In this document: in pieces, positions 3,562-18,160 of the stretch
Position numbering within the stretch: the first letter of the stretch is position 1
Layout: every line of letters starts with the position of its first letter
Origin: Escherichia phage SSBS18_WS_10_728
Length of the DNA stretch: 64,000 nt
Sequence record: MT322327.1
Strand: one strand, 5' to 3'
Made by a program: the position numbers and the translations under genes
The notes under the pieces: model-generated
What the model was told of the DNA's origin: nothing
Seen by the model: only the letters and a program-made list of their open reading frames with translations
The model's database searches: none

Positions 3562-3854
3562 ATTAATCTTTAAAGACTCTCTTAGAAAGCCCTTAAAGAT
3601 GCCCACTTTATTAATCATACCGTGGGCTAGTACGCCAAATTCTTTGATGAGGGATTGGAAGACCTCACTGGTGTTTAGCCTATCAAGCTACTGCCAGAAA
3701 AACATTGTCGTTTGCATTTATTTTAAATTTGCAAAATAGACGCTACGCAACGAAAACTATTCAGAATATGTACAACAAATTTCCCCACATTGTGTTACGT
3801 CTAACGCTCATGTATTGGTGTTTGAATTATACATATTATGAATCATTTTTAGTT

Positions 3855-3975: not shown

Positions 3976-4052
3976 TGGAGGTTCAGATGGGAATCGAACC
4001 CACATTCATAGGGCTTATGAAACCCCTGCATTACCTTATCTGCGACTGAACC
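3976..4052 (-). tRNA. tRNA-Met (anticodon CAU; elongator or Ile2-type)
   Basis: Acceptor GGTTCAG/CTGAACC perfect, anticodon stem GGGGT/GCCCT with loop UUCAUAA, T-arm GTGGGTTCGATTCCCAT. Confidence 0.55.
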
Positions 4053-4056
4053 ATAT

Positions 4057-4132
4057 TGGTAGAAGTGGAGGGATTCGAACCCATCGCCTGTCAGATTAAA
4101 AGTCTGCCGCATCACCATTCTGCTACACTTCC
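4057..4132 (-). tRNA. tRNA-Lys (anticodon UUU)
   Basis: Acceptor GGAAGTG/CACTTCT, anticodon stem GCAGA/TCTGA with loop CUUUUAA, CCA encoded. Confidence 0.5.
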
Positions 4133-4333
4133 ATTAAATTATCTTTGTAGATAAGCTACCCAGACTTGCTTAAGGTCTGTAGCGATGTGCCTTGTTGGGT
4201 TTAAATCTAGAATTTACCCTTTCACCCTTTGTGGTCGCATACTCACAGGTAAGCTTAATAGCTCACCTACAAAGATAATTACCAGACCGTTGTTTATCAT
4301 CTTAAGTGCTACCATTACACCAACTCGACATCT

Positions 4334-4357
4334 GCCGAGTGAAGGAATCGAACCTTC
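4334..4357 (-). other. orphan tRNA T-arm-like element (possible tRNA remnant)
   Basis: Perfect T-arm GAAGGTTCGATTCCTTC on minus strand but no matching 5' acceptor strand or CCA nearby. Confidence 0.3.
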
Positions 4358-4393
4358 GCCTTTTCTTTACCGGAGAAATAGATTGTTTAAGTT

Positions 4394-4413
4394 TTGCTGT
4401 AAACGGTCTTCTG
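4394..4413. repeat. tRNA-cluster repeat copy A (TTGCTG-N5-GGTCTTCTG)
   Basis: One of four 20-nt copies; CCAGACC partner at 4281 and 4424. Confidence 0.6.
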
Positions 4414-4483
4414 TAAATTTGTTGAGCCAGACCAAGTTTTAAATTTTTTCAAAATTAAATTGGCTTGAAAATATCATACGTGC

Positions 4484-5421: not shown

Positions 5422-6837
5422 TTACCAGATGTAACGGTCAATCATTACTGCTTTGAGCATTACGCTGGTTGGGTCAAACTTCTCACCACCAAGCAGAGCT
5501 TTTAAAGTGGCTGGAGAGAACCCTGATACCATTGCTACACCGTTATCCTTAACAGATACTTCGCAAGTACCATTACGGTTTGCTAAGTACCAGAATACCA
5601 GTTGTGGCATTTCGTATCCAGCTTTTTTGTACTTACTACGAATTGCTTCAAAGTTTGTACGACCATTTGCACCATCAACCTGATTAAACTCCATATCAGA
5701 GAAGATGATAAGCTTACTTGGCATATCTTTCTGAGTCAAGTTGTTTCTCTTACCTGTCTCAAGAATACGGTCAAAAGCTGCTTGTAAATTAGTTGAACCA
5801 TACTCAACATGACGCATCACCTGACGATGACGGTTTCGTAAATCACCACTCAGTTCGATGAAGTGAGGGTTTGTTGAGTAAACCATTAACTCATTCTTAA
5901 AGCAACCAGTATTGCGTTCTGCTACATACAAGGCAAGTGATACACCAATATCAAGTGCAGTGATTGAACCAAGATTCACCCAAGACATTGAGCTTGAAAC
6001 ATCAGTCATACACAAGATGTTCTCACCTTCTGCCATCCAGTTTGGTAGTGCTTTCCACTGCTCATTGGCAACATCTGCATTACCATGTTTGATAGACTTA
6101 ATCACATCGTATGGGTAAACAGCACCAGCGTTAATCTTAGCCTCACCCTTTGAGAGTGACTCGATGTAAGCTTTGTAACGTTCTCCATCTTTACGGTTAA
6201 AGAGTTTTTGGTAACGTGCAGCAGCAAGAGAAGGAATCTTACTGTAGTCGATTTTACCAAACTCATTAGCAGAGATTTTTTGCTCAACTGTATCAGAAAG
6301 TGCAGACAACAGTGTGCGGTACTCTTTCTCACTCAAGTTAGCAAACTTGCAGAAACGTTTTACAAACTGTTTGTGGCGTGGTTTTACTCGTGGTAACCAC
6401 TTGGCTGCTAAACCTGCTGTTTCAGGGTCTAGTAATGCTGCTTCTAAGTGCTTAAAGGCATCTGTCTCAAAACGAGTACCTACGAAGATTTTGAAGTCAT
6501 CAAAACGACCAAGCTCTGCAATCTTATCCATAATGCGAAGAACCTGTGTAGGCTCTAAAACTTTATCTTCAATTGCTTGAAGTAAAACAGTTCTGAAGGC
6601 TTTACGCTCACCCATACCTTCTCGTACATCTCGCATGTGAAGCAAAATACGAACTGCAACATCAACATCCTCACGCAAAGCTTTGTAGAACAAATCTGGT
6701 AAGATTTCTACATTACTACGGCTGGAACCAGCAGCTTTGTAAAAGTCCACAAGAGCAGACATTGATGAAGTATGGTTTACAGCACCATTTTCAGTTCGAC
6801 CTGCATGAAGGTGCGCATGTTTAAATAATTCGCTCAT
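5422..6837 (-). CDS. vWA-domain protein (MIDAS motif DxSxS), possibly DUF2828-like
   Basis: 471-aa ORF; motif MTDVSSSMS; GAGAG RBS upstream. Confidence 0.55.
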   Translation of the reverse strand: MSELFKHAHLHAGRTENGAVNHTSSMSALVDFYKAAGSSRSNVEILPDLFYKALREDVDVAVRILLHMRDVREGMGERKAFRTVLLQAIEDKVLEPTQVLRIMDKIAELGRFDDFKIFVGTRFETDAFKHLEAALLDPETAGLAAKWLPRVKPRHKQFVKRFCKFANLSEKEYRTLLSALSDTVEQKISANEFGKIDYSKIPSLAAARYQKLFNRKDGERYKAYIESLSKGEAKINAGAVYPYDVIKSIKHGNADVANEQWKALPNWMAEGENILCMTDVSSSMSWVNLGSITALDIGVSLALYVAERNTGCFKNELMVYSTNPHFIELSGDLRNRHRQVMRHVEYGSTNLQAAFDRILETGKRNNLTQKDMPSKLIIFSDMEFNQVDGANGRTNFEAIRSKYKKAGYEMPQLVFWYLANRNGTCEVSVKDNGVAMVSGFSPATLKALLGGEKFDPTSVMLKAVMIDRYIW

Positions 6838-6918
6838 ATTTTACTCTCTTCTCTCATTTGTTGTTTGATGTGACAGACTTTAGAGCAACTTTGTAGAGTC
6901 TGTCAACACCTTTTAAAA

Positions 6919-12863: not shown

Positions 12864-13363
12864 TTTACGAAGAAAGATATAAGATAGATTATCAGGATAC
12901 TCGTCATCATACTTCTTTGAGAGTAACCAAACCAAATGGAGATACTGGTATTATAGCACATTTTGGTGGTGATTATTGGTATGGCACAGGTTGCTTTGAA
13001 GGTTACAATAAAGAATACTTGAAAGCTTTCTACAGAGACTTTACAAATGACTACAACAGGGTTGTTGACGAAAAGAATAAGTGCATTAAGCATGAACACC
13101 ATGCCAGAGGTTGTTTAAGTACGGTAATGATACTGGCATTTTTCTTAGCAACATTACTGGCAGTATCAGCAATCAGTTACATAGCTCAAGATTTAACCAT
13201 TACACAGATTACCGCAAAGGTATATGATGTCTGGTACTTGTATGCTGTTCCTTTAGCTGGTATCATCATCTCACTAATGAGATTCAGAGTTCATAAGAAA
13301 CGACTCAAGGACTCTGAGGTTAAACTTGAAGAGGTAAGTAAAGAATGCAACCTACAATTATAG
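12860..13363 (+). CDS. hypothetical protein with C-terminal transmembrane segment
   Basis: Start moved to ATG 12860 (GAGGGG RBS, ATGA overlap). Confidence 0.45.
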   Translation: MIYEERYKIDYQDTRHHTSLRVTKPNGDTGIIAHFGGDYWYGTGCFEGYNKEYLKAFYRDFTNDYNRVVDEKNKCIKHEHHARGCLSTVMILAFFLATLLAVSAISYIAQDLTITQITAKVYDVWYLYAVPLAGIIISLMRFRVHKKRLKDSEVKLEEVSKECNLQL

Positions 13364-13439
13364 CTGTATGTATTCGTTTTGCAATCGCTGAAATGATTAA
13401 CAAGGCAATCTTGAAAGATGCCTATGGAGAAACTAAGTA

Positions 13440-13664
13440 ATGATTAAGACACCTGTACCAATTTTTGGATTCCCTTCTATTGAAGAGTTCAAAGTTTATC
13501 TTGACAAAAACTTCTACAATGAGCAGCCTGTTACTCTGCTGAAGAGTGATTTATCAGAGCTTCTTGATATGGTTATCAAGGCAACTTCTGAGAAGGAACC
13601 TGAGCAGAAAGCTGAGAAGAAGACTAGTAAGAAATCTGAAAAGAAAACTGAAAAGTCTGAGTAA
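13440..13664 (+). CDS. hypothetical protein, Lys/Glu-rich C-terminus
   Basis: 74-aa ORF. Confidence 0.4.
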   Translation: MIKTPVPIFGFPSIEEFKVYLDKNFYNEQPVTLLKSDLSELLDMVIKATSEKEPEQKAEKKTSKKSEKKTEKSE

Positions 13665-13717
13665 TAACTTGAGGGGTTACTTGATAGCCCCTTTGTAGAA
13701 ACTTAGAAGGTAGCGAA

Positions 13718-14182
13718 ATGAAAATTAAAGAAGTTGTTCAAAAAGCAATGCTTGACAACTCAACTAAAGATGAAATGTACAAAGAGATTTGTGATAAGTT
13801 GAATTGTTCAAGACATGCTGCTAAGGCTCTTGTACATTGCTTTATCTGGGAATGCTCAGAAGCTTATATGCAATATGTAGCTTTTGAAAGTTCTCATCTT
13901 CTAGGTGATGTAGAAGCTGGTGAGAAACTAAAAGAACCTGAGATGAAAACAGTCCCTAAAGTTGGAAATGTATACCCACTTAAAGATTTCAAGACTGGAA
14001 AGGTTGTTGCAAAAGGTGTAGTAGAGCATGTTTATGATGACGGTGAATACTTACTTAAAGTATTTGAGTATGATAGCCACCATACACACTTATGTGGGCT
14101 TACATTCTTTGTAACAAAAGAAGACCTCATTAAAAACAAAGACAACAAGTTTGCAGTCCCAGATTACCAAGTCTTACGATAA
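13718..14182 (+). CDS. hypothetical protein
   Basis: 154-aa ORF with RBS. Confidence 0.5.
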   Translation: MKIKEVVQKAMLDNSTKDEMYKEICDKLNCSRHAAKALVHCFIWECSEAYMQYVAFESSHLLGDVEAGEKLKEPEMKTVPKVGNVYPLKDFKTGKVVAKGVVEHVYDDGEYLLKVFEYDSHHTHLCGLTFFVTKEDLIKNKDNKFAVPDYQVLR

Positions 14183-14195
14183 TGGTGTAATAGAT

Positions 14196-14744
14196 ATGGA
14201 AAAAGATAATTTAAAAGATGTTGAAGGTAACTATCTAGTTCTTGACTGGAGTGATGCTCAAGAAGCACTCTCTGAAGAAAGCCTTGACAGATTAAAACAG
14301 ATTGTTTTTGCAGTACGGAGTTACAGAGAAGTTAAAAATGGTAAAGACCCACTTGAAGGAGTCTTTGTAGAGAAGTCTTATCCGTTCTATGAAGACACTT
14401 TACAGAAAGTTAAGATGTACTTTAGACAGAAGAACCGTAAAGTGGTCACTATGGTATCTCTTGGTGGACAGAGTATGTCTGTGATGGAAGATATCAACCC
14501 TAAGAGACCGAGTAAAGGTGTTTGTATAAAAATCACAGGTCATGAAGAGTATATCTCAGTGGATGACTTTAGTTCATTCTGTAATGGTTCTGCTGTCTTT
14601 AATGGGTTCCACTATGATATCCGAGTGTACCCAATCAAGGGAGATGATATCATGATGCAGATATTCGATAGTAACAATGGATTTGCTCATTTTTATCAGA
14701 CAACCAAGTCATCACTGAAGACAGTTCTAGAAACACTGATTTAA
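14196..14744 (+). CDS. hypothetical protein
   Basis: ORF 14151..14744; likely start at ATG 14196. Confidence 0.45.
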   Translation: MEKDNLKDVEGNYLVLDWSDAQEALSEESLDRLKQIVFAVRSYREVKNGKDPLEGVFVEKSYPFYEDTLQKVKMYFRQKNRKVVTMVSLGGQSMSVMEDINPKRPSKGVCIKITGHEEYISVDDFSSFCNGSAVFNGFHYDIRVYPIKGDDIMMQIFDSNNGFAHFYQTTKSSLKTVLETLI

Positions 14745-14752
14745 AATATTTT

Positions 14753-14787
14753 AAGAGCCTCCTTAATTGGGGGCTTTTTAATTTTTA
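14753..14787 (+). terminator. rho-independent terminator ending the plus-strand block
   Basis: Hairpin AGCCTCC...GGGGGCT followed by TTTTTAATTTTT. Confidence 0.55.
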
Positions 14788-14789
14788 TA

Positions 14790-16360
14790 AAATTTTATCG
14801 GTTGTCCCAACCTCTGGGTCACCATCATATGTGAATAAAATATCTATCCTTCTTAACAGCCTTCTTAATCTTACTCTCTATATAGTTATATAGTACTATA
14901 TAGTATCTTAGTATCTATCTAGTGGTCTTAATAGCACCTCTGTATAGCCCTTCTAAACACTCTTCTAACAAGCCTTCTTAACAGCCTATACAATCACCTT
15001 AACCATTCCTCTACACCCTCTTAGAAGCTCCTATACACCTCTTAATCTCTAGGTTAGCTATGATACTCTCTATAGGTGTTCACTAGGAAATACTAAGCCT
15101 CTATATAGACTGTTTTAACAAACTTAACAGGAATATCTTTACAGACCTTATCTCACAAGGTCTAACACGGTACTAACAAGGTATCTTATAAGCCTGTTTA
15201 TGCCTGTATTTTTAAAAGACTGTCTAGGTAATTATTCAGAATTTTAAAATTTTTATAAAATAGGACTATCAAGTCATTTTTTAGGGTCTTTGAAGGAACT
15301 GAAAAATATCTGTAGAGTTGATTCGGTAGAGCCTACCTCATGATGTATATCTGCTTGGTAGCCCTTAACATCCTTGTAACATCCCCTTTGCAGAATTTTA
15401 AAATATCATTAACAATCTCTTAACAGTTGCTACATCTTCTTAACATCTCTTCAGAGGTCTTAACAGATTCTTAACAGAACTAACAAGAGCTTAACAGTTT
15501 TTTAACAAGTGCTGAATAGTCTTTACAGAGGTTTAACAGATGACTAACAAGTCCTAAGAAGTTAATTTTAAAGGGTTATTTTGTAAAGATAATTAACAAG
15601 TTCCTAACAAGTGTTTAACCTTTTTAACAAGCTATTAACATGGTCACTATCTCTTGGTCTATAGTTCCCTCTCCCTCTTAGTGACCCTTTAAACATACCT
15701 CTTAAAAGCTCTCCATAGCTCTTTGTAAGCTCTTTTAAGTCTCTTCCTAGTAGTTACACCCCCAACTATACAGAAAGCTATTTATAGGGCTTTACAGGAG
15801 CTTTTAAGGCTATGTCAAAGACTCTTACAAGGCTTTTACGTGGTTTTAACAGAGATTTAACAAGGGGCTAACAAGTTGCTAACAAGTACCTTAAAAGCAT
15901 AACTATGTAGGGTTTGTTAAGAAATTGTTAAGAAAATGTTAAGGGGGCTAGCATTTACGTAACTTTATAGCCTCTTTTACGTAACTTTGAAGTAACTTTA
16001 TAGCCTCTTTTACGTAACTTTATAGCCCCTATAACATACTTTTTAGTGACTATCAAGGGGGTTGTTTAGTTATTCACAAGATACTAACGAGATGATAAAG
16101 CTTACACCCTTATAAGATTCTTTTAAGGCTCTGGTAAGCTTTATAAAGGGATTTTAAGGGTGAAGTAATGCAATCCCTTAAGTTAGGTTAAAAAGGCTGT
16201 TATAGGGCTTTATAGAGCGTTTTAGTGGTTGCCCTTCCCTTTCGGGTTATGGGCTTATATTTAAGTTGATTTGATAAAAGGCTATAGAGTAGACTATAGA
16301 GTTATTGCTTTTAAGGTCTAGTAAGATTCTGGAAAGGAAAGGGAAAGGATTTAATAAGAC
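14790..16360. repeat. 1.6-kb noncoding region dense in short direct repeats
   Basis: No ORF of 60 aa or more on either strand; about 20 copies of TTAACAG/TAACAAG, TATATAG runs, ~23-bp direct repeats TACGTAACTTTATAGCCTCTTT at 15955-16030. Confidence 0.7.
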
Positions 16361-16362
16361 GT

Positions 16363-16387
16363 AAAAAAGCCCCATTTAAGGGGCTGT
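16363..16387 (-). terminator. rho-independent terminator ending the minus-strand small-gene array
   Basis: Minus strand: hairpin AGCCCC-TTAAAT-GGGGCT followed by TTTTTT. Confidence 0.55.
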
Positions 16388-16423
16388 AAAGGTATCTGGG
16401 GCTATTTAGCCCCGTTGCGGCGT

Positions 16424-16672
16424 TTAGTTAGTGCCTTCTTTGTCGTAGTACAGGGAGACTATTTTTTCACCCCAATAGTGAAAAGTGTAACCATCTTTAA
16501 GAACTTCCTGTTTTGTTTCTTTCCAGAACTCATCAGAAGGATTATAGTCTTTGATGGTCTGACTGATAAGACCTTTCACCATTTCAAAGGCGTTATCAGT
16601 GCCAACAAGGTCAAATTTAACATCCAGAGAGTAGAAGCCGAATTCGTTAACAGTTGCGCGAATAGTTGCCAT
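16424..16672 (-). CDS. hypothetical small protein (array gene a)
   Basis: 82-aa ORF preceded by conserved leader cassette. Confidence 0.5.
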   Translation of the reverse strand: MATIRATVNEFGFYSLDVKFDLVGTDNAFEMVKGLISQTIKDYNPSDEFWKETKQEVLKDGYTFHYWGEKIVSLYYDKEGTN

Positions 16673-16745
16673 TTTAGAATCTCCTAGTTTAAGGACTTTG
16701 TTTAGTGGGGAAGGTCATTCCCTCCCGTTGATTAGTAATTTACTG
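16670..16745 (-). promoter_or_regulatory. conserved leader cassette, type A hairpin
   Basis: Minus sense GGGAGGGAATGACCTTCCCC-ACTAAACAAAGTCCTTAAACTAGGAGATTCTAAAATG. Confidence 0.6.
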
Positions 16746-17003
16746 CATGTTGGCGTATGTTGCAAGCCTTTTTTCGTTGTATTTTGTAAGAATCTCACAA
16801 GATAAAACATCATATTTTGTAATAGCGTTGCCTTTGTCGAGGTCAAAGAATCCAAATGTTTTACCATCTTTGAAGCCCACAACCTCGTAAGACTCTTTGA
16901 TGATTTCACCATTGAACAAATCACTTTCGATACGGTGGAATAATGCTACATCCTCTTTATCGGTTGCAATCTGTAACAGTGTGGTCAATTCTACGTGTTC
17001 CAT
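16740..17003 (-). CDS. hypothetical small protein (array gene b)
   Basis: 87-aa ORF with variant leader. Confidence 0.5.
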   Translation of the reverse strand: MEHVELTTLLQIATDKEDVALFHRIESDLFNGEIIKESYEVVGFKDGKTFGFFDLDKGNAITKYDVLSCEILTKYNEKRLATYANMQ

Positions 17004-17060
17004 TTTGAATCTCCAGTTTAGGATTTTATTTAGTGGGGGAGGTTATCCCCCGTTAAAAGA
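17001..17060 (-). promoter_or_regulatory. conserved leader cassette, type A variant
   Basis: Variant leader with GGGGGAGGTTATCCCCC hairpin. Confidence 0.5.
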
Positions 17061-17064
17061 CACT

Positions 17065-17595
17065 TTATAGATTCTTGGTTGTCTCGTCAATATCTTTTTC
17101 AATATCTTTTAAAGTTTTTTCTAAGTTCTTGATATTGAACGTTAAACCTTCACCGAGGGTCTGAGAGTAACCGTTAGGACGATGGTCGTAAAGCTCGATA
17201 TCTTCCACATCGGATAGGCTTACTCTTTCACCATTTGCAGCGTAGGCCATTGAAACAGTATTTACAGGGGCTTTATAGAACTTGTTTAAGGACTTGATAG
17301 AACGTTCGTAAGCCATTTTATAACCGTTTAAAAGGCTTTTAACGTGGTTGTGAACGTTTTTACACTCATCCAAGTAAATCCCTAAGAATAGCGGTAATAA
17401 TTCTGCTACAGCTTGCATAAAGTGAGAGACTACAACTGTTGCAACATTACGACGATGAACGTAATAAGCCCCGTTTTCTGATTTAGTGATGGTTGCAAAG
17501 TGTACCCCATTGCAGCGAAATTCATAGGTATCTTTAACAGGCTTAGACATTACAGCATTTGAGCGAATGTAGTTGATAGCTTGAAATTTGTTCAT
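17065..17595 (-). CDS. hypothetical protein (array gene c)
   Basis: 176-aa ORF with conserved leader. Confidence 0.5.
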   Translation of the reverse strand: MNKFQAINYIRSNAVMSKPVKDTYEFRCNGVHFATITKSENGAYYVHRRNVATVVVSHFMQAVAELLPLFLGIYLDECKNVHNHVKSLLNGYKMAYERSIKSLNKFYKAPVNTVSMAYAANGERVSLSDVEDIELYDHRPNGYSQTLGEGLTFNIKNLEKTLKDIEKDIDETTKNL

Positions 17596-17660
17596 TTTTG
17601 AATCTCCTAGTTTAAGGACTTTATTTAGTGAGGAAGTTCATTCCCTCACCGTTGATTAGT
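17593..17660 (-). promoter_or_regulatory. conserved leader cassette, type A
   Basis: Leader plus hairpin GTGAGGAAGTTCATTCCCTCAC. Confidence 0.6.
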
Positions 17661-17818
17661 AATTTACTTGTTTTGATATCTGATTGCAAGCAATTTTTTA
17701 AGTTTATCTATAAAGAATCTTTTAAGTTAATCCCTTTTAGATAAACCCCCTCGAACAAAGTTACCAATGTCAAGGGGTATTGTCAACACTTTTTTAAAAG
17801 TTTTTTGTAAGTTATTGA

Positions 17819-18160
17819 TTAACTGATGAATATTTTTTCAGGTTTTACATAGCTGATACGCTGACTTTTTAGGAGGTCATCCCAGATTAGCGCGGCAATA
17901 TGAGAATAACCGGATTCACGTAAGAGCTTCATTGCTTTACTTCTCGTTTCGAATCTGGTTGCATAGTACTCACTATTCAAAACAGTTTTATTCCCTTCGT
18001 TATCTGTATGGATAATCTGCATCACTTGAAAGGGGCTGGTATCCTCGCCTTTGTTCCATTGCTCAAAGTATTTTAGGCACTGCATAGGTGACAGCTTATC
18101 GCTTACTTGAGTTGACCAAGATGAATTCTCTTTATCAGTAATTACAGTTACATAAGCCAT
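17819..18160 (-). CDS. hypothetical protein (array gene d)
   Basis: ORF 17819..18205; start set to ATG 18160, which directly follows the conserved leader. Confidence 0.5.
   Translation of the reverse strand: MAYVTVITDKENSSWSTQVSDKLSPMQCLKYFEQWNKGEDTSPFQVMQIIHTDNEGNKTVLNSEYYATRFETRSKAMKLLRESGYSHIAALIWDDLLKSQRISYVKPEKIFIS

What the first reader, a model, noticed from the sequence alone, without database searches (positions are those of the whole stretch)
14790..16360. 1.6-kb ORF-free region packed with short direct repeats
Between the convergent terminators at ~14.75 kb and ~16.37 kb there is no ORF of 60 aa or more on either strand. The region instead has dozens of 7-9-mers (CTTAACAG, CTAACAAG, TTAACAA), TATATAG runs, three copies of TGTTAAGAAA and ~23-bp direct repeats TACGTAACTTTATAGCCTCTTT. 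The repeat density and strand-biased pyrimidine composition suggest a protein-binding array such as a replication origin with iterons, an injection/packaging control region, or a source of noncoding RNA.
Basis: seen in the sequence. Interest (0 to 1): 0.65.

Follow-up and report, generated by a model that had tools for sequence, protein, structure and literature searches.

The report
Felix O1-type phage terminal repeat region
The 1.6-kb gene-free stretch is where the linear DNA of a Felix O1-like phage begins and ends: it holds the ~590-bp terminal repeat and the flanking signals used to cut and package the genome. This is already known for the genus, although the repeat arrays inside it have never been studied.

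Summary
Window 14745-16414 is the largest ORF-free gap in the window. It lies between two convergent terminators and is dense with short repeats: TAACA occurs 28 times on one strand against 2.9 expected, and 12 neighbouring spacings are exactly 11 nt.

The window is a Felixounavirus (Felix O1-like myovirus). The published, experimentally mapped 608-bp direct terminal repeat (DTR) of its relative UAB_Phi87 aligns to window 15355-15940. GenBank records that carry the repeat at both ends (D4, ZX4221, Mooglevirus HP1 and others) put the termini at window 15357 and 15948.

So the region is the collapsed concatemer junction: left unique flank (14790-15356), one DTR copy (15357-15948, 592 bp) and right unique flank (15949-16360).

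Both boundaries carry the same motif in inverted orientation, TGCTW|G(N0-4)CCCTTAACA, found nowhere else in the 64 kb. This fits staggered nicking with repeat duplication, as in the Watson/T7 model. That mechanism is inferred, not shown.

The phased TAACA arrays are conserved site by site across four to five genera. The whole non-coding block is more conserved than the neighbouring genes. The arrays most likely bind a packaging protein; the binder is unknown.

Origin, ncRNA and small-ORF readings found little or no support.

Verdict: a known element, with uncharacterised internal anatomy.

The parts
14753..14785 (+). Rho-independent terminator that closes the + strand gene cluster (last ORF ends at 14744)
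   Evidence: Terminator scan found 10 stem pairs followed by a T-run. ORF list.
14790..15356 (.). Left unique non-coding flank. In the virion it lies directly inside the left DTR copy. It is C/T-rich on the + strand and holds 7 TAACA sites, the TATATAG run (14877-14923) and two exact copies of AATTTTTATAAAAT (14780, 15248).
   Evidence: Composition, tandem repeats, the 14-mer. Identity is 83% to Mooglevirus and Suspvirus, against 71% for the adjacent genes.
15344..15356 (+). 13-mer TGTATATCTGCTT that abuts the terminus, immediately outside the DTR. Probable part of the cleavage or recognition site.
   Evidence: Invariant in all five BLAST-fetched genera, including Erwinia phage phiEa104 at about 49% overall identity. 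The DTRs of D4, ZX4221 and HP1 begin at the next base.
15357..15948 (-). Direct terminal repeat, 592 bp by homology. It is a single collapsed copy in this sequence. Deposited records that start at the terminus read along the window's - strand and begin GCCCCCTTAACATTTTC...
   Evidence: The published UAB_Phi87 DTR aligns to 15355-15940 at 90.6% identity and spans 608 bp in its own record. Exact end duplications of 581 bp (D4) and 591 bp (ZX4221) map to 15357 and 15948. HP1 has an annotated 570-bp repeat_region at the same boundaries. Further records end at the same base. There is only one copy in the window.
15352..15370 (+). Boundary motif TGCTT|GGTAGCCCTTAACA
   Evidence: TGCTWG(N0-4)CCCTTAACA occurs only twice in the 64 kb, at the two DTR boundaries and in inverted orientation.
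15937..15953 (-). Boundary motif TGCTA|GCCCCCTTAACA, the inverted partner of the motif at 15352-15370
   Evidence: Variants across relatives are listed.
15366..15640 (+). TAACA array A: 16 same-strand copies spaced 11, 20, 31-33 or 49 nt apart, often as pairs of the form TAACAR-N4-YTAACAAG
   Evidence: 14 of the 16 sites keep TAACA at the aligned position in 21-23 of 23 genomes; the other two in 15 and 17. The spacing pattern is preserved in Mooglevirus and Suspvirus and partly in Kolesnikvirus.
15641..15846 (.). TAACA-free centre of the DTR, with AGCTCTTT/TTTTAAG-type repeats
   Evidence: (families D7, D9).
15847..15884 (+). TAACA array B: 4 copies at exactly 11-nt spacing
15914..15943 (-). 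Inverted TAACA array (TTGTTAAGAAA x2.7 at an 11-nt period) that runs up to the terminus
   Evidence: Forms an inverted repeat with 15398-15435 (pair I1). Conserved in 19-22 of 23 genomes.
15949..16360 (.). Right unique non-coding flank. In the virion it lies directly before the right DTR copy. It is G-rich on the + strand.
   Evidence: Composition. Identity is 82-84% to Mooglevirus and Suspvirus, against 74-78% for the adjacent genes.
15954..16030 (+). 22/33-bp tandem repeat TTTACGTAACTTTATAGCCTC, starting 6 nt from the terminus. It carries the palindrome TTACGTAA three times (15955, 15977, 16010). Copy number varies between phages.
   Evidence: family D4; 33 bp x1.9, 100% match. Copy-number variation. 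The CGTAA core is kept in phiEa104.
16368..16385 (-). Rho-independent terminator that closes the - strand gene cluster (last ORF 16424-16672)

Best explanation
The region is the terminus, or concatemer-junction, region of a Felixounavirus genome.

Layout. Virion DNA is linear and non-permuted, with the same ~590-bp sequence at both ends (the DTR). In this sequence the two copies are collapsed into one, at window 15357-15948. Around it lie the two unique non-coding flanks that sit just inside the left and right virion ends. Terminators on both sides stop the convergent gene clusters from transcribing into the junction.

Proposed mechanism (inferred):
1. Replication produces concatemers with one DTR copy per junction.
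2. The terminase recognises the junction and nicks opposite strands at the two DTR boundaries. At each boundary the nick falls in the strand that reads 5'-TGCTW^G..CCCTTAACA.
3. The 3'-OH ends are extended through the DTR by strand displacement, so each daughter genome receives a full copy. This is Watson's T7-type model.
4. The helically phased TAACA arrays (11-nt period, one orientation through most of the DTR, inverted in the last 35 bp) and the TTACGTAA-containing tandem repeat beside one cut site are binding sites for an unidentified packaging protein, either an unrecognised small terminase or another phage factor. That protein would build the nucleoprotein complex that positions the nuclease.

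What is shown: the identity and position of the DTR and termini, by homology to mapped relatives; the motif statistics; the conservation.

What is inferred: the nicking chemistry, the role of the arrays, and the identity of the binder.
For: Taxonomy and conservation
- The region matches 256 phage records, nearly all Felixounavirus-type phages of Escherichia, Salmonella, Shigella and Citrobacter, at 80-92% identity. 201 of them cover it almost fully.

Termini in relatives
- UAB_Phi87 termini were mapped by Bal31 digestion plus run-off sequencing, giving a 608-bp DTR (PMC4837284).
- The DTR sequence in Fig. S1 of that paper aligns to window 15355-15940 at 90.6% identity. It spans 608 bp in the UAB_Phi87 GenBank record.
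- D4 and ZX4221 carry exact 581- and 591-bp duplications at both record ends. Their boundaries map to window 15357 and 15948.
- Mooglevirus HP1 annotates a 570-bp repeat_region with the same boundaries.
- H12, SeKF_63, NBSal004, I14.1, pEP20, ECP2307 and GE_vB_7A start or end at, or within a few bases of, the same positions.
- PhageTerm gave a 581-bp DTR for the Felixounavirus Pr103Blw (PMC8303462).

Boundary motif
- TGCTWG(N0-4)CCCTTAACA is unique to the two boundaries in 64 kb and is inverted between them.
- The 13-mer outside the left boundary is invariant across five genera.

TAACA arrays
- 28 copies against 2.9 expected; 12 spacings of exactly 11 nt against 0.0045 expected.
- Most sites are conserved in position in 19-23 of 23 genomes.
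- The spacing pattern is retained across genera.

Selection on the non-coding DNA
- The whole block is 81-86% identical to Mooglevirus and Suspvirus, against 71-78% for the flanking genes.

Analogy with T7
- In T7 the 160-bp terminal repeat is followed by an array of CCTAAAG heptamers at 13-nt spacing.
Against: - No reads or virion DNA exist for this particular phage, so its termini are inferred by homology only.
- The two methods disagree slightly: Sanger run-off in UAB_Phi87 places the ends 2 nt and 8 nt away from the positions given by record ends.
- No small terminase is recognised in the genus (Felix O1 paper). The 66-aa ORF upstream of TerL in Bas63 has no informative family match. TerL lies outside the window. 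The proposed binder is therefore hypothetical.
- The CCCTTAACA boundary motif is degenerate in phiEa104.
- A cleavage signal alone does not explain why all 1.6 kb, including both flanks, is so conserved. Further functions are likely.
Confidence: 0.88

Rival explanations
1. Iteron-type replication origin. The TAACA arrays would be iterons for an initiator, the AT-rich AATTTTTATAAAAT elements would be the unwinding region, and DnaA would assist. This could hold instead of, or in addition to, the terminus function.
For: - Phased direct repeats.
- Two exact AT-rich 14-mers found only here.
- Two DnaA-box-consensus sites, TTATTCACA, at 14830(-) and 16070(+); that is 2 of the 6 in the window.
- The whole block is more conserved than a cut site would need.
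- From general knowledge: T7 has secondary origins near its ends.
Against: - The DnaA-like boxes are not conserved in Mooglevirus, Suspvirus or Kolesnikvirus, and the window as a whole has fewer such boxes than chance.
- No initiator-like gene is adjacent; the flanking proteins have no Pfam or PDB match.
- Genes converge here and cumulative GC skew has a local maximum at 14685, which looks like a terminus rather than an origin.
- The mapped termini already account for the location.
Confidence: 0.15
2. End-protection or synapsis ('telomere') function. The arrays at both virion ends would bind a phage protein that shields the ends from RecBCD, or that pairs DTRs for recombination into concatemers, rather than binding terminase.
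For: - Both virion 5' ends start with the same G..CCCTTAACA sequence plus phased TAACA sites.
- Most arrays lie inside the DTR, so they are present at both ends.
- The PhageMaP preprint states that Bas63 lacks a RecBCD inhibitor.
Against: There is no candidate protein and no experimental hint. Binding sites of this kind near cut sites are classically terminase sites (general knowledge of lambda cosB and SPP1 pacL/pacR). The two roles are not mutually exclusive.
Confidence: 0.2
3. Source of non-coding RNA, or a transcribed regulatory region.
For: - Long conserved non-coding DNA.
- The - strand of the DTR folds with a z-score of -2.9.
Against: - No Rfam match with E below 0.07, and the matches found are implausible families.
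- Promoter-like sites are not enriched (12 against 8.5 +/- 2.5) and none is strong.
- The + strand fold z-score is only -1.55. The fold signal comes from the inverted TAACA arrays at the two DTR ends (pair I1).
- Conservation takes the form of short phased DNA motifs. No transcriptome literature was found.
Confidence: 0.05
4. T5-type injection-stop or two-step DNA transfer signal.
For: The region lies at the genome ends and is rich in direct and inverted repeats with DnaA-like boxes. From general knowledge, this resembles the T5 injection stop signal region.
Against: No gene lies between either end and the arrays, so nothing could be expressed from a first-step fragment. The nearest genes point towards the ends.
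Confidence: 0.04
5. Unannotated small protein-coding genes.
For: Some records annotate small ORFs here: JH2 (44 aa), UAB_Phi87 (three ORFs) and D4.
Against: No ORF of 28 aa or more is shared in position and frame across the five genera. Only one 30-aa ORF is shared, and by just two of them. Indels are frequent and not in multiples of three.
Confidence: 0.02

Closest known systems
Direct terminal repeat of Felixounavirus UAB_Phi87 (Bardina et al. 2016, PMC4837284), and the DTRs reported or annotated for Pr103Blw, D4, ZX4221 and Mooglevirus HP1
   Same: - Homologous sequence: 90.6% identity over the whole DTR.
- Same boundaries and same flanking genes.
- Same length class (570-608 bp).
   Different: This phage's own termini have not been mapped. 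There are small length differences from indels. The published descriptions give only the DTR length and sequence; none of the papers I could search analyses the internal arrays, the boundary motif or the flanks.
T7/T3-type concatemer junction: a short exact terminal repeat with adjacent short-repeat arrays, duplicated by staggered nicks (Watson model)
   Same: - Short, exact, non-permuted, non-coding DTR.
- Arrays of a phased heptamer-size motif next to the termini. In T7, CCTAAAG recurs at 13-nt spacing at positions 175-341.
   Different: - The motif and period differ (TAACA at 11 nt).
- Here the arrays lie mostly inside the DTR.
- Here the junction is insulated by convergent terminators, whereas T7 has promoters (A0, phiOL, A1-A3) in and beside it.
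- The phage is a myovirus with a T4-type TerL fold family and no recognised TerS.
Small-terminase binding arrays at cos/pac sites (lambda cosB R-sites, SPP1 pacL/pacR). Cited from general knowledge.
   Same: Multiple short, phased repeats flanking a terminase cut site.
   Different: No TerS has been identified. There are far more sites (about 30). The ends are a DTR, not cohesive or headful ends.
Type II partition centromere parC of plasmid R1: two blocks of 11-bp iterons bound cooperatively by ParR. Cited from general knowledge.
   Same: Direct repeats at an 11-bp period arranged in blocks, which suggests cooperative coating of one face of the helix.
   Different: No ParR/ParM-like genes, and a lytic phage context. 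This is a resemblance in pattern only.

Membership tests
Short exact direct terminal repeat (DTR) terminus of Ounavirinae | Sequence homologous to an experimentally mapped DTR | tested here: met
   The UAB_Phi87 Fig. S1 DTR aligns to window 15355-15940 at 90.6% identity.
Short exact direct terminal repeat (DTR) terminus of Ounavirinae | The sequence is present identically at both ends of virion DNA | tested here: met
   Met in relatives: exact 581-bp (D4) and 591-bp (ZX4221) duplications at both record ends, and HP1's annotated 570-bp repeat_region. For this phage itself it cannot be tested without reads or virion DNA.
Short exact direct terminal repeat (DTR) terminus of Ounavirinae | Fixed, non-permuted termini at a conserved nucleotide position | tested here: met
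   Seven or more records from two genera end at the bases that correspond to window 15948 and 15357. Bal31 sensitivity of two terminal fragments in UAB_Phi87 comes from the literature.
Short exact direct terminal repeat (DTR) terminus of Ounavirinae | A single copy in collapsed or circularised assemblies, at the same syntenic position | tested here: met
   One copy in the window. The same convergent-gene gap is present in Felix O1, Mijalis, SUSP2 and phiEa104.
Short exact direct terminal repeat (DTR) terminus of Ounavirinae | TerL of the DTR-generating clade | not tested
   TerL lies outside the window. The literature places Felix O1-type TerL in a DTR cluster. Bas63 TerL has the Terminase_6N and Terminase_6C domains.
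T7-type staggered-nick duplication mechanism | Nicks on opposite strands at the two repeat boundaries, followed by fill-in synthesis | not testable with these tools
   Only indirect support: the same motif in inverted orientation at both boundaries.
Iteron-type replication origin | Iterons next to an AT-rich unwinding element and a cognate initiator gene | tested here: not met
   Arrays and AT-rich 14-mers exist. However, no initiator-like gene is adjacent, and the GC-skew and gene-orientation pattern looks like a terminus.
Iteron-type replication origin | Conserved DnaA boxes | tested here: not met
   The two TTATTCACA sites are not conserved in other genera.
Iteron-type replication origin | Origin activity | not testable with these tools
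   Needs marker-frequency analysis or 2D gels.
Described non-coding RNA family (Rfam 15) | A covariance-model match at or near the gathering score | tested here: not met
   Best matches score 19-25 bits against gathering scores of 34-55, and to implausible families.
T5-type first-step-transfer / injection stop signal | Pre-early genes between the entering end and the stop signal | tested here: not met
   There are no genes within the first ~1 kb of either end, and the nearest genes point outward.

The most novel reading that the evidence does not exclude
The 1.6-kb block may be more than a cut site. It would be a conserved nucleoprotein 'telomere' of Ounavirinae.

About 30 helically phased TAACA sites are kept site by site across genera that infect Escherichia, Salmonella, Citrobacter and Erwinia. 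The block is more conserved than the neighbouring genes. On this reading the sites are coated by a still unidentified phage protein: the missing small terminase or a new end-binding factor.

That protein would perform one or more of these roles:
- direct the symmetric nicking at TGCTW|G..CCCTTAACA;
- protect the DNA ends;
- pair the DTRs for concatemer formation.

The flanks may add a replication or ejection function.
Probability: 0.25. Interest if true: 0.55.

Novelty: already known. Interest (0 to 1): 0.3.

Why it matters
For annotation, this stretch should be labelled as the genome terminus and DTR. Most of the 250 or so related GenBank records leave it blank, or call spurious small ORFs in it. 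Genome records of this genus should be opened at window-equivalent position 15948 in the reverse orientation.

For biology, short-DTR packaging has been dissected mainly in T7 and T3. Felix O1-type phages are widely used for typing, biocontrol and therapy, have no recognised small terminase, and show an unusually clear layout:
- an invariant 13-mer at one cut site;
- an inverted shared motif at both cut sites;
- position-conserved 11-nt-phased arrays.

That layout gives concrete targets for finding the DNA-recognition component of their packaging machinery. It also shows engineers which sequences must be kept in synthetic or rebooted genomes.

Tried and rejected
- Small ORFs: ORFs of 28 aa or more were listed in five genera and mapped onto the alignment. 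None is conserved. Rejected.
- ncRNA: the Rfam E-value scan found nothing credible. Folding both strands of the DTR gave z-scores of -1.55 and -2.9, explained by the inverted arrays. Rejected as the main reading.
- Promoters: the sigma-70 scan showed no enrichment. The T4 late-promoter motif TATAAATA is not enriched.
- DnaA boxes: two consensus matches in the region, not conserved in other genera.
- Looking for the binder:
  - Nine flanking proteins fall in PHROGs of unknown function and have no Pfam hit.
  - Three of them were compared with PDB sequences, with nothing informative.
  - TerL is not in the window.
  - In Bas63 the 66-aa ORF upstream of TerL has no informative family match.
- PhageMaP (Bas63) was checked for fitness data on intergenic insertions in this region. 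No such statement appears in the text and no supplement is held.
- Literature searches for a description of the repeats, an origin or a transcriptome in this genus found only DTR lengths.
- The first guess, that this was a T5-like injection-stop region, was dropped once BLAST showed a Felixounavirus.
Full report
**1. What is in the sequence**

Window 14790-16360 has no ORF of 60 aa or more on either strand; the longest is 42 aa. The ORF-free gap 14745-16414 (1670 bp) is by far the largest in the window; the next is 602 bp.

The region lies between a + strand gene cluster that ends at 14744 and a - strand cluster that ends at 16424. Each cluster is closed by a hairpin-plus-T-run terminator, at 14753-14785 (+) and 16385-16368 (-).

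GC skew is strongly negative from about 14.8 to 15.9 kb and positive from about 15.9 to 16.4 kb.

- TAACA occurs 28 times on the + strand and 4 times on the - strand. Dinucleotide shuffles give 2.9 +/- 1.6 (maximum 9 in 2000).
- Its density is 17.8 per kb, against 1.6 per kb in the rest of the window.
- Twelve adjacent spacings are exactly 11 nt, against 0.0045 expected.
- The paired unit TAACARNNNNYTAACARG (up to 1 mismatch) matches 15 times in 64 kb, 12 of them here, against 0.39 expected.
- Tandem Repeats Finder also reports the TATATAG run (14877-14923), TTGTTAAGAAA x2.7 (15914-15943) and a perfect 33-bp x1.9 repeat (15959-16021).

Minor corrections to the finding are given under the observation check.

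**2. What the window is**

Megablast of the region finds 256 phage records: 119 Escherichia, 77 Salmonella, 22 Shigella, 11 Citrobacter and 14 named Felixounavirus. In 201 of them a single match covers at least 80% of the region, and most best matches lie at 80-92% identity. The window is therefore a Felix O1-like myovirus (Ounavirinae).

In nearly all of these records the stretch is unannotated. Some carry small 'repeat_region' marks or isolated short 'hypothetical protein' calls.

**3. The genome termini map here**

The Felix O1 genome paper inferred short terminal repeats and found only a large terminase (PMC3185647).

Bardina et al. 2016 mapped the ends of the relative UAB_Phi87 by Bal31 digestion and run-off sequencing, and reported a 608-bp DTR (PMC4837284). 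They printed its sequence in Fig. S1. That sequence aligns to window 15355-15940 on the - strand at 90.6% identity. It spans exactly 608 bp in the UAB_Phi87 GenBank record.

Independent support comes from records deposited with the repeat at both ends:
- vB_EcoM_D4 has an exact 581-bp duplication and ZX4221 an exact 591-bp one.
- Both start GCCCCCTTAACATTTTC... and both repeats end ...GTTAAGGGCTACC.
- These boundaries correspond to window 15948 and 15357.
- Mooglevirus vB_CbrM_HP1 annotates a 570-bp repeat_region with the same two boundaries.
- H12, SeKF_63, NBSal004, I14.1, pEP20, ECP2307 and GE_vB_7A begin or end at, or within a few bases of, the same positions.
- PhageTerm gave a 581-bp DTR for the Felixounavirus Pr103Blw (PMC8303462).

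The run-off boundaries in UAB_Phi87 differ from the record-end boundaries by 2 nt and 8 nt. That sets the residual uncertainty.

The window holds a single copy. The region is therefore a collapsed concatemer junction:
- unique flank 14790-15356;
- DTR 15357-15948 (592 bp);
- unique flank 15949-16360.

In the deposited orientation (the window's - strand), both terminal gene clusters are transcribed towards the DNA ends.

**4. Anatomy and conservation**

The same layout, a 1.4-1.7-kb gap between convergent genes, is present in Felix O1, Mooglevirus (Mijalis, HP1), Suspvirus (SUSP2) and Kolesnikvirus (Erwinia phage phiEa104).

In a five-genus alignment the 13-mer TGTATATCTGCTT (window 15344-15356) is invariant. 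It lies immediately outside the left boundary. It is invariant even in phiEa104, which is only about 49% identical overall. These five sequences were fetched by BLAST, not by that pattern. The 30 IMG/VR loci were fetched with the pattern, so they do not count as evidence for its invariance.

The two boundaries share a motif in inverted orientation:
- TGCTT|GGTAGCCCTTAACA on the + strand;
- TGCTA|GCCCCCTTAACA on the - strand.

TGCTWG(N0-4)CCCTTAACA occurs only at these two places in 64 kb, and CCCTTAACA only three times. Consequently both virion 5' ends begin G..CCCTTAACA, followed by further TAACA sites at about +20 and, at one end, +31.

In phiEa104 both boundary motifs are changed, to GCCGCTTCTCA and GCCACTTTTACA. 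This hints at concerted change, but it rests on one lineage.

Inside the DTR:
- 16 TAACA sites fill 15366-15640;
- the centre, 15641-15846, has none;
- four more sit at 15847-15884;
- three inverted copies run up to the terminus at 15914-15943.

Most sites keep TAACA at the aligned position in 19-23 of 23 genomes. The spacing series (11, 33, 11, 20, 20, 11, 9, 11, 11, 31, 11...) recurs in Felix O1 and SUSP2, nearly so in Mijalis, and partly in phiEa104.

Six nucleotides outside the other boundary starts the 22/33-bp tandem repeat. It carries the palindrome TTACGTAA three times, and its copy number varies between phages. A 24-bp indel lies just outside the invariant 13-mer.

Against Mooglevirus and Suspvirus, the three non-coding parts are 81-86% identical while the adjacent genes are 71-78% identical. 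Against phiEa104 the non-coding block still aligns while the flanking genes do not. The whole 1.6 kb is thus under selection as DNA.

**5. How it most likely works**

Shown: the position of the DTR and termini, by homology to mapped relatives; the motif statistics; the conservation.

Inferred:
1. Concatemers carry one DTR per junction.
2. The terminase nicks opposite strands at the two boundaries, each time in the strand reading 5'-TGCTW^G..CCCTTAACA.
3. The 3'-OH ends are extended through the repeat by strand displacement, so both daughter ends receive a full copy.

This is the classical Watson/T7 scheme (general knowledge). It requires the inverted symmetry of cut sites that is seen here.

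The 11-nt phasing places the TAACA sites on one face of the helix. From general knowledge, that is the hallmark of cooperative binding by a small DNA-binding protein, as at lambda cosB, SPP1 pac or R1 parC. I therefore take the arrays, and probably the TTACGTAA repeats, to be the DNA-recognition platform of the packaging machinery.

The binder is unknown:
- no TerS is recognised in the genus;
- TerL is outside the window;
- the 66-aa ORF upstream of TerL in Bas63 has no informative family;
- the genes flanking the junction have no Pfam or PDB relatives.

A direct anatomical comparison supports the analogy. T7's 160-bp terminal repeat is followed by a dozen CCTAAAG heptamers at 13-nt spacing. 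The differences:
- here the arrays are mostly inside the repeat;
- the period is 11 nt;
- the junction is insulated by convergent terminators rather than crossed by promoters.

**6. Rivals**

- Origin of replication. Arrays, two unique AT-rich 14-mers and two DnaA-consensus boxes speak for it. Against it: the boxes are not conserved, no initiator gene is nearby, genes converge here, and cumulative GC skew has a local maximum. It cannot be excluded as an added function, and the conservation of the flanks leaves room for one.
- ncRNA. No Rfam match, no excess of promoter-like sites, and weak fold signals that the inverted arrays explain.
- T5-like injection stop. No genes lie between the ends and the arrays.
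- Small ORFs. None is conserved.
- End protection or DTR synapsis. This is compatible with the data and overlaps with the main model.

**7. Novelty and verdict**

The element is the Felixounavirus DTR and terminus region. It is already known and its sequence has been published for a close relative.

In the papers I could search I found no description of the boundary motif, the invariant 13-mer, the position-conserved 11-nt-phased TAACA arrays, or the fact that the whole block is more conserved than its neighbouring genes. These are refinements of a known kind of element, not a new kind.

Interest is modest. The finding is a good annotation fix and a well-defined starting point for finding the missing DNA-recognition subunit of these phages' packaging motor.

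Noticed in passing
whole window 1-64000; also all Ounavirinae loci fetched (L001-L043, L046, L047): GATC is completely absent. There are 0 sites in the window against about 224 expected, and 0 in 338,657 nt of related loci, including Mooglevirus, Suspvirus and Erwinia phage phiEa104. The next most avoided 4-nt palindrome, CCGG, is only 0.5x. The absence of MboI/GATC sites is already noted for the genus (VpaE1 in PMC4690856, Alf5 in PMC5477317). Its extension to the whole subfamily sample is seen here.
   Followed up: partly
window 14780-14793 and 15248-15261: The exact near-palindromic AT-rich 14-mer AATTTTTATAAAAT occurs only twice in the 64 kb. The two copies bracket the C/T-rich 450 bp of the left flank. 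It is conserved in Felixounavirus, Mooglevirus and Suspvirus. Function unknown.
   Followed up: partly
window 14790-16360 compared with 13290-14744 and 16424-17860: The non-coding block is more conserved between genera (81-86% identity) than the adjacent protein-coding genes (71-78%). It still aligns with phiEa104 where the flanking genes do not.
   Followed up: yes
L013 (Erwinia phage phiEa104, NC_015292) about 4014-4452: If the conserved boundary sequences mark the termini in this genus too, Kolesnikvirus phiEa104/Ea21-4 should have a DTR of about 439 bp at this position. I found no published mapping.
   Followed up: no
window 15320-15343 and 15984-16023: Two hot spots of length variation lie directly beside the two termini. 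One is a 24-bp indel just outside the invariant 13-mer. The other is copy-number variation of the 22/33-bp TTACGTAA-containing repeat.
   Followed up: partly
L047 (UAB_Phi87, JN225449) 229-1016; L003 (JH2) 3585-3719; L005/L006 (D4): Several GenBank records annotate short 'hypothetical protein' ORFs inside the DTR/terminus region. None is conserved across genera, so they are probably spurious calls.
   Followed up: yes
window 5422-6840 (-): A 472-aa protein with DUF2828 and DUF7788 domains. It looks like the counterpart of the Ro60-like protein that the PhageMaP preprint describes as Bas63 gp130, next to the tRNA genes; that equivalence was not tested. Not related to the finding.
   Followed up: no
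window 14830-14838 (-) and 16070-16078 (+): Two DnaA-box-consensus sites (TTATTCACA) lie in inverted orientation, one in each unique flank. They are not conserved outside Felixounavirus.
   Followed up: partly
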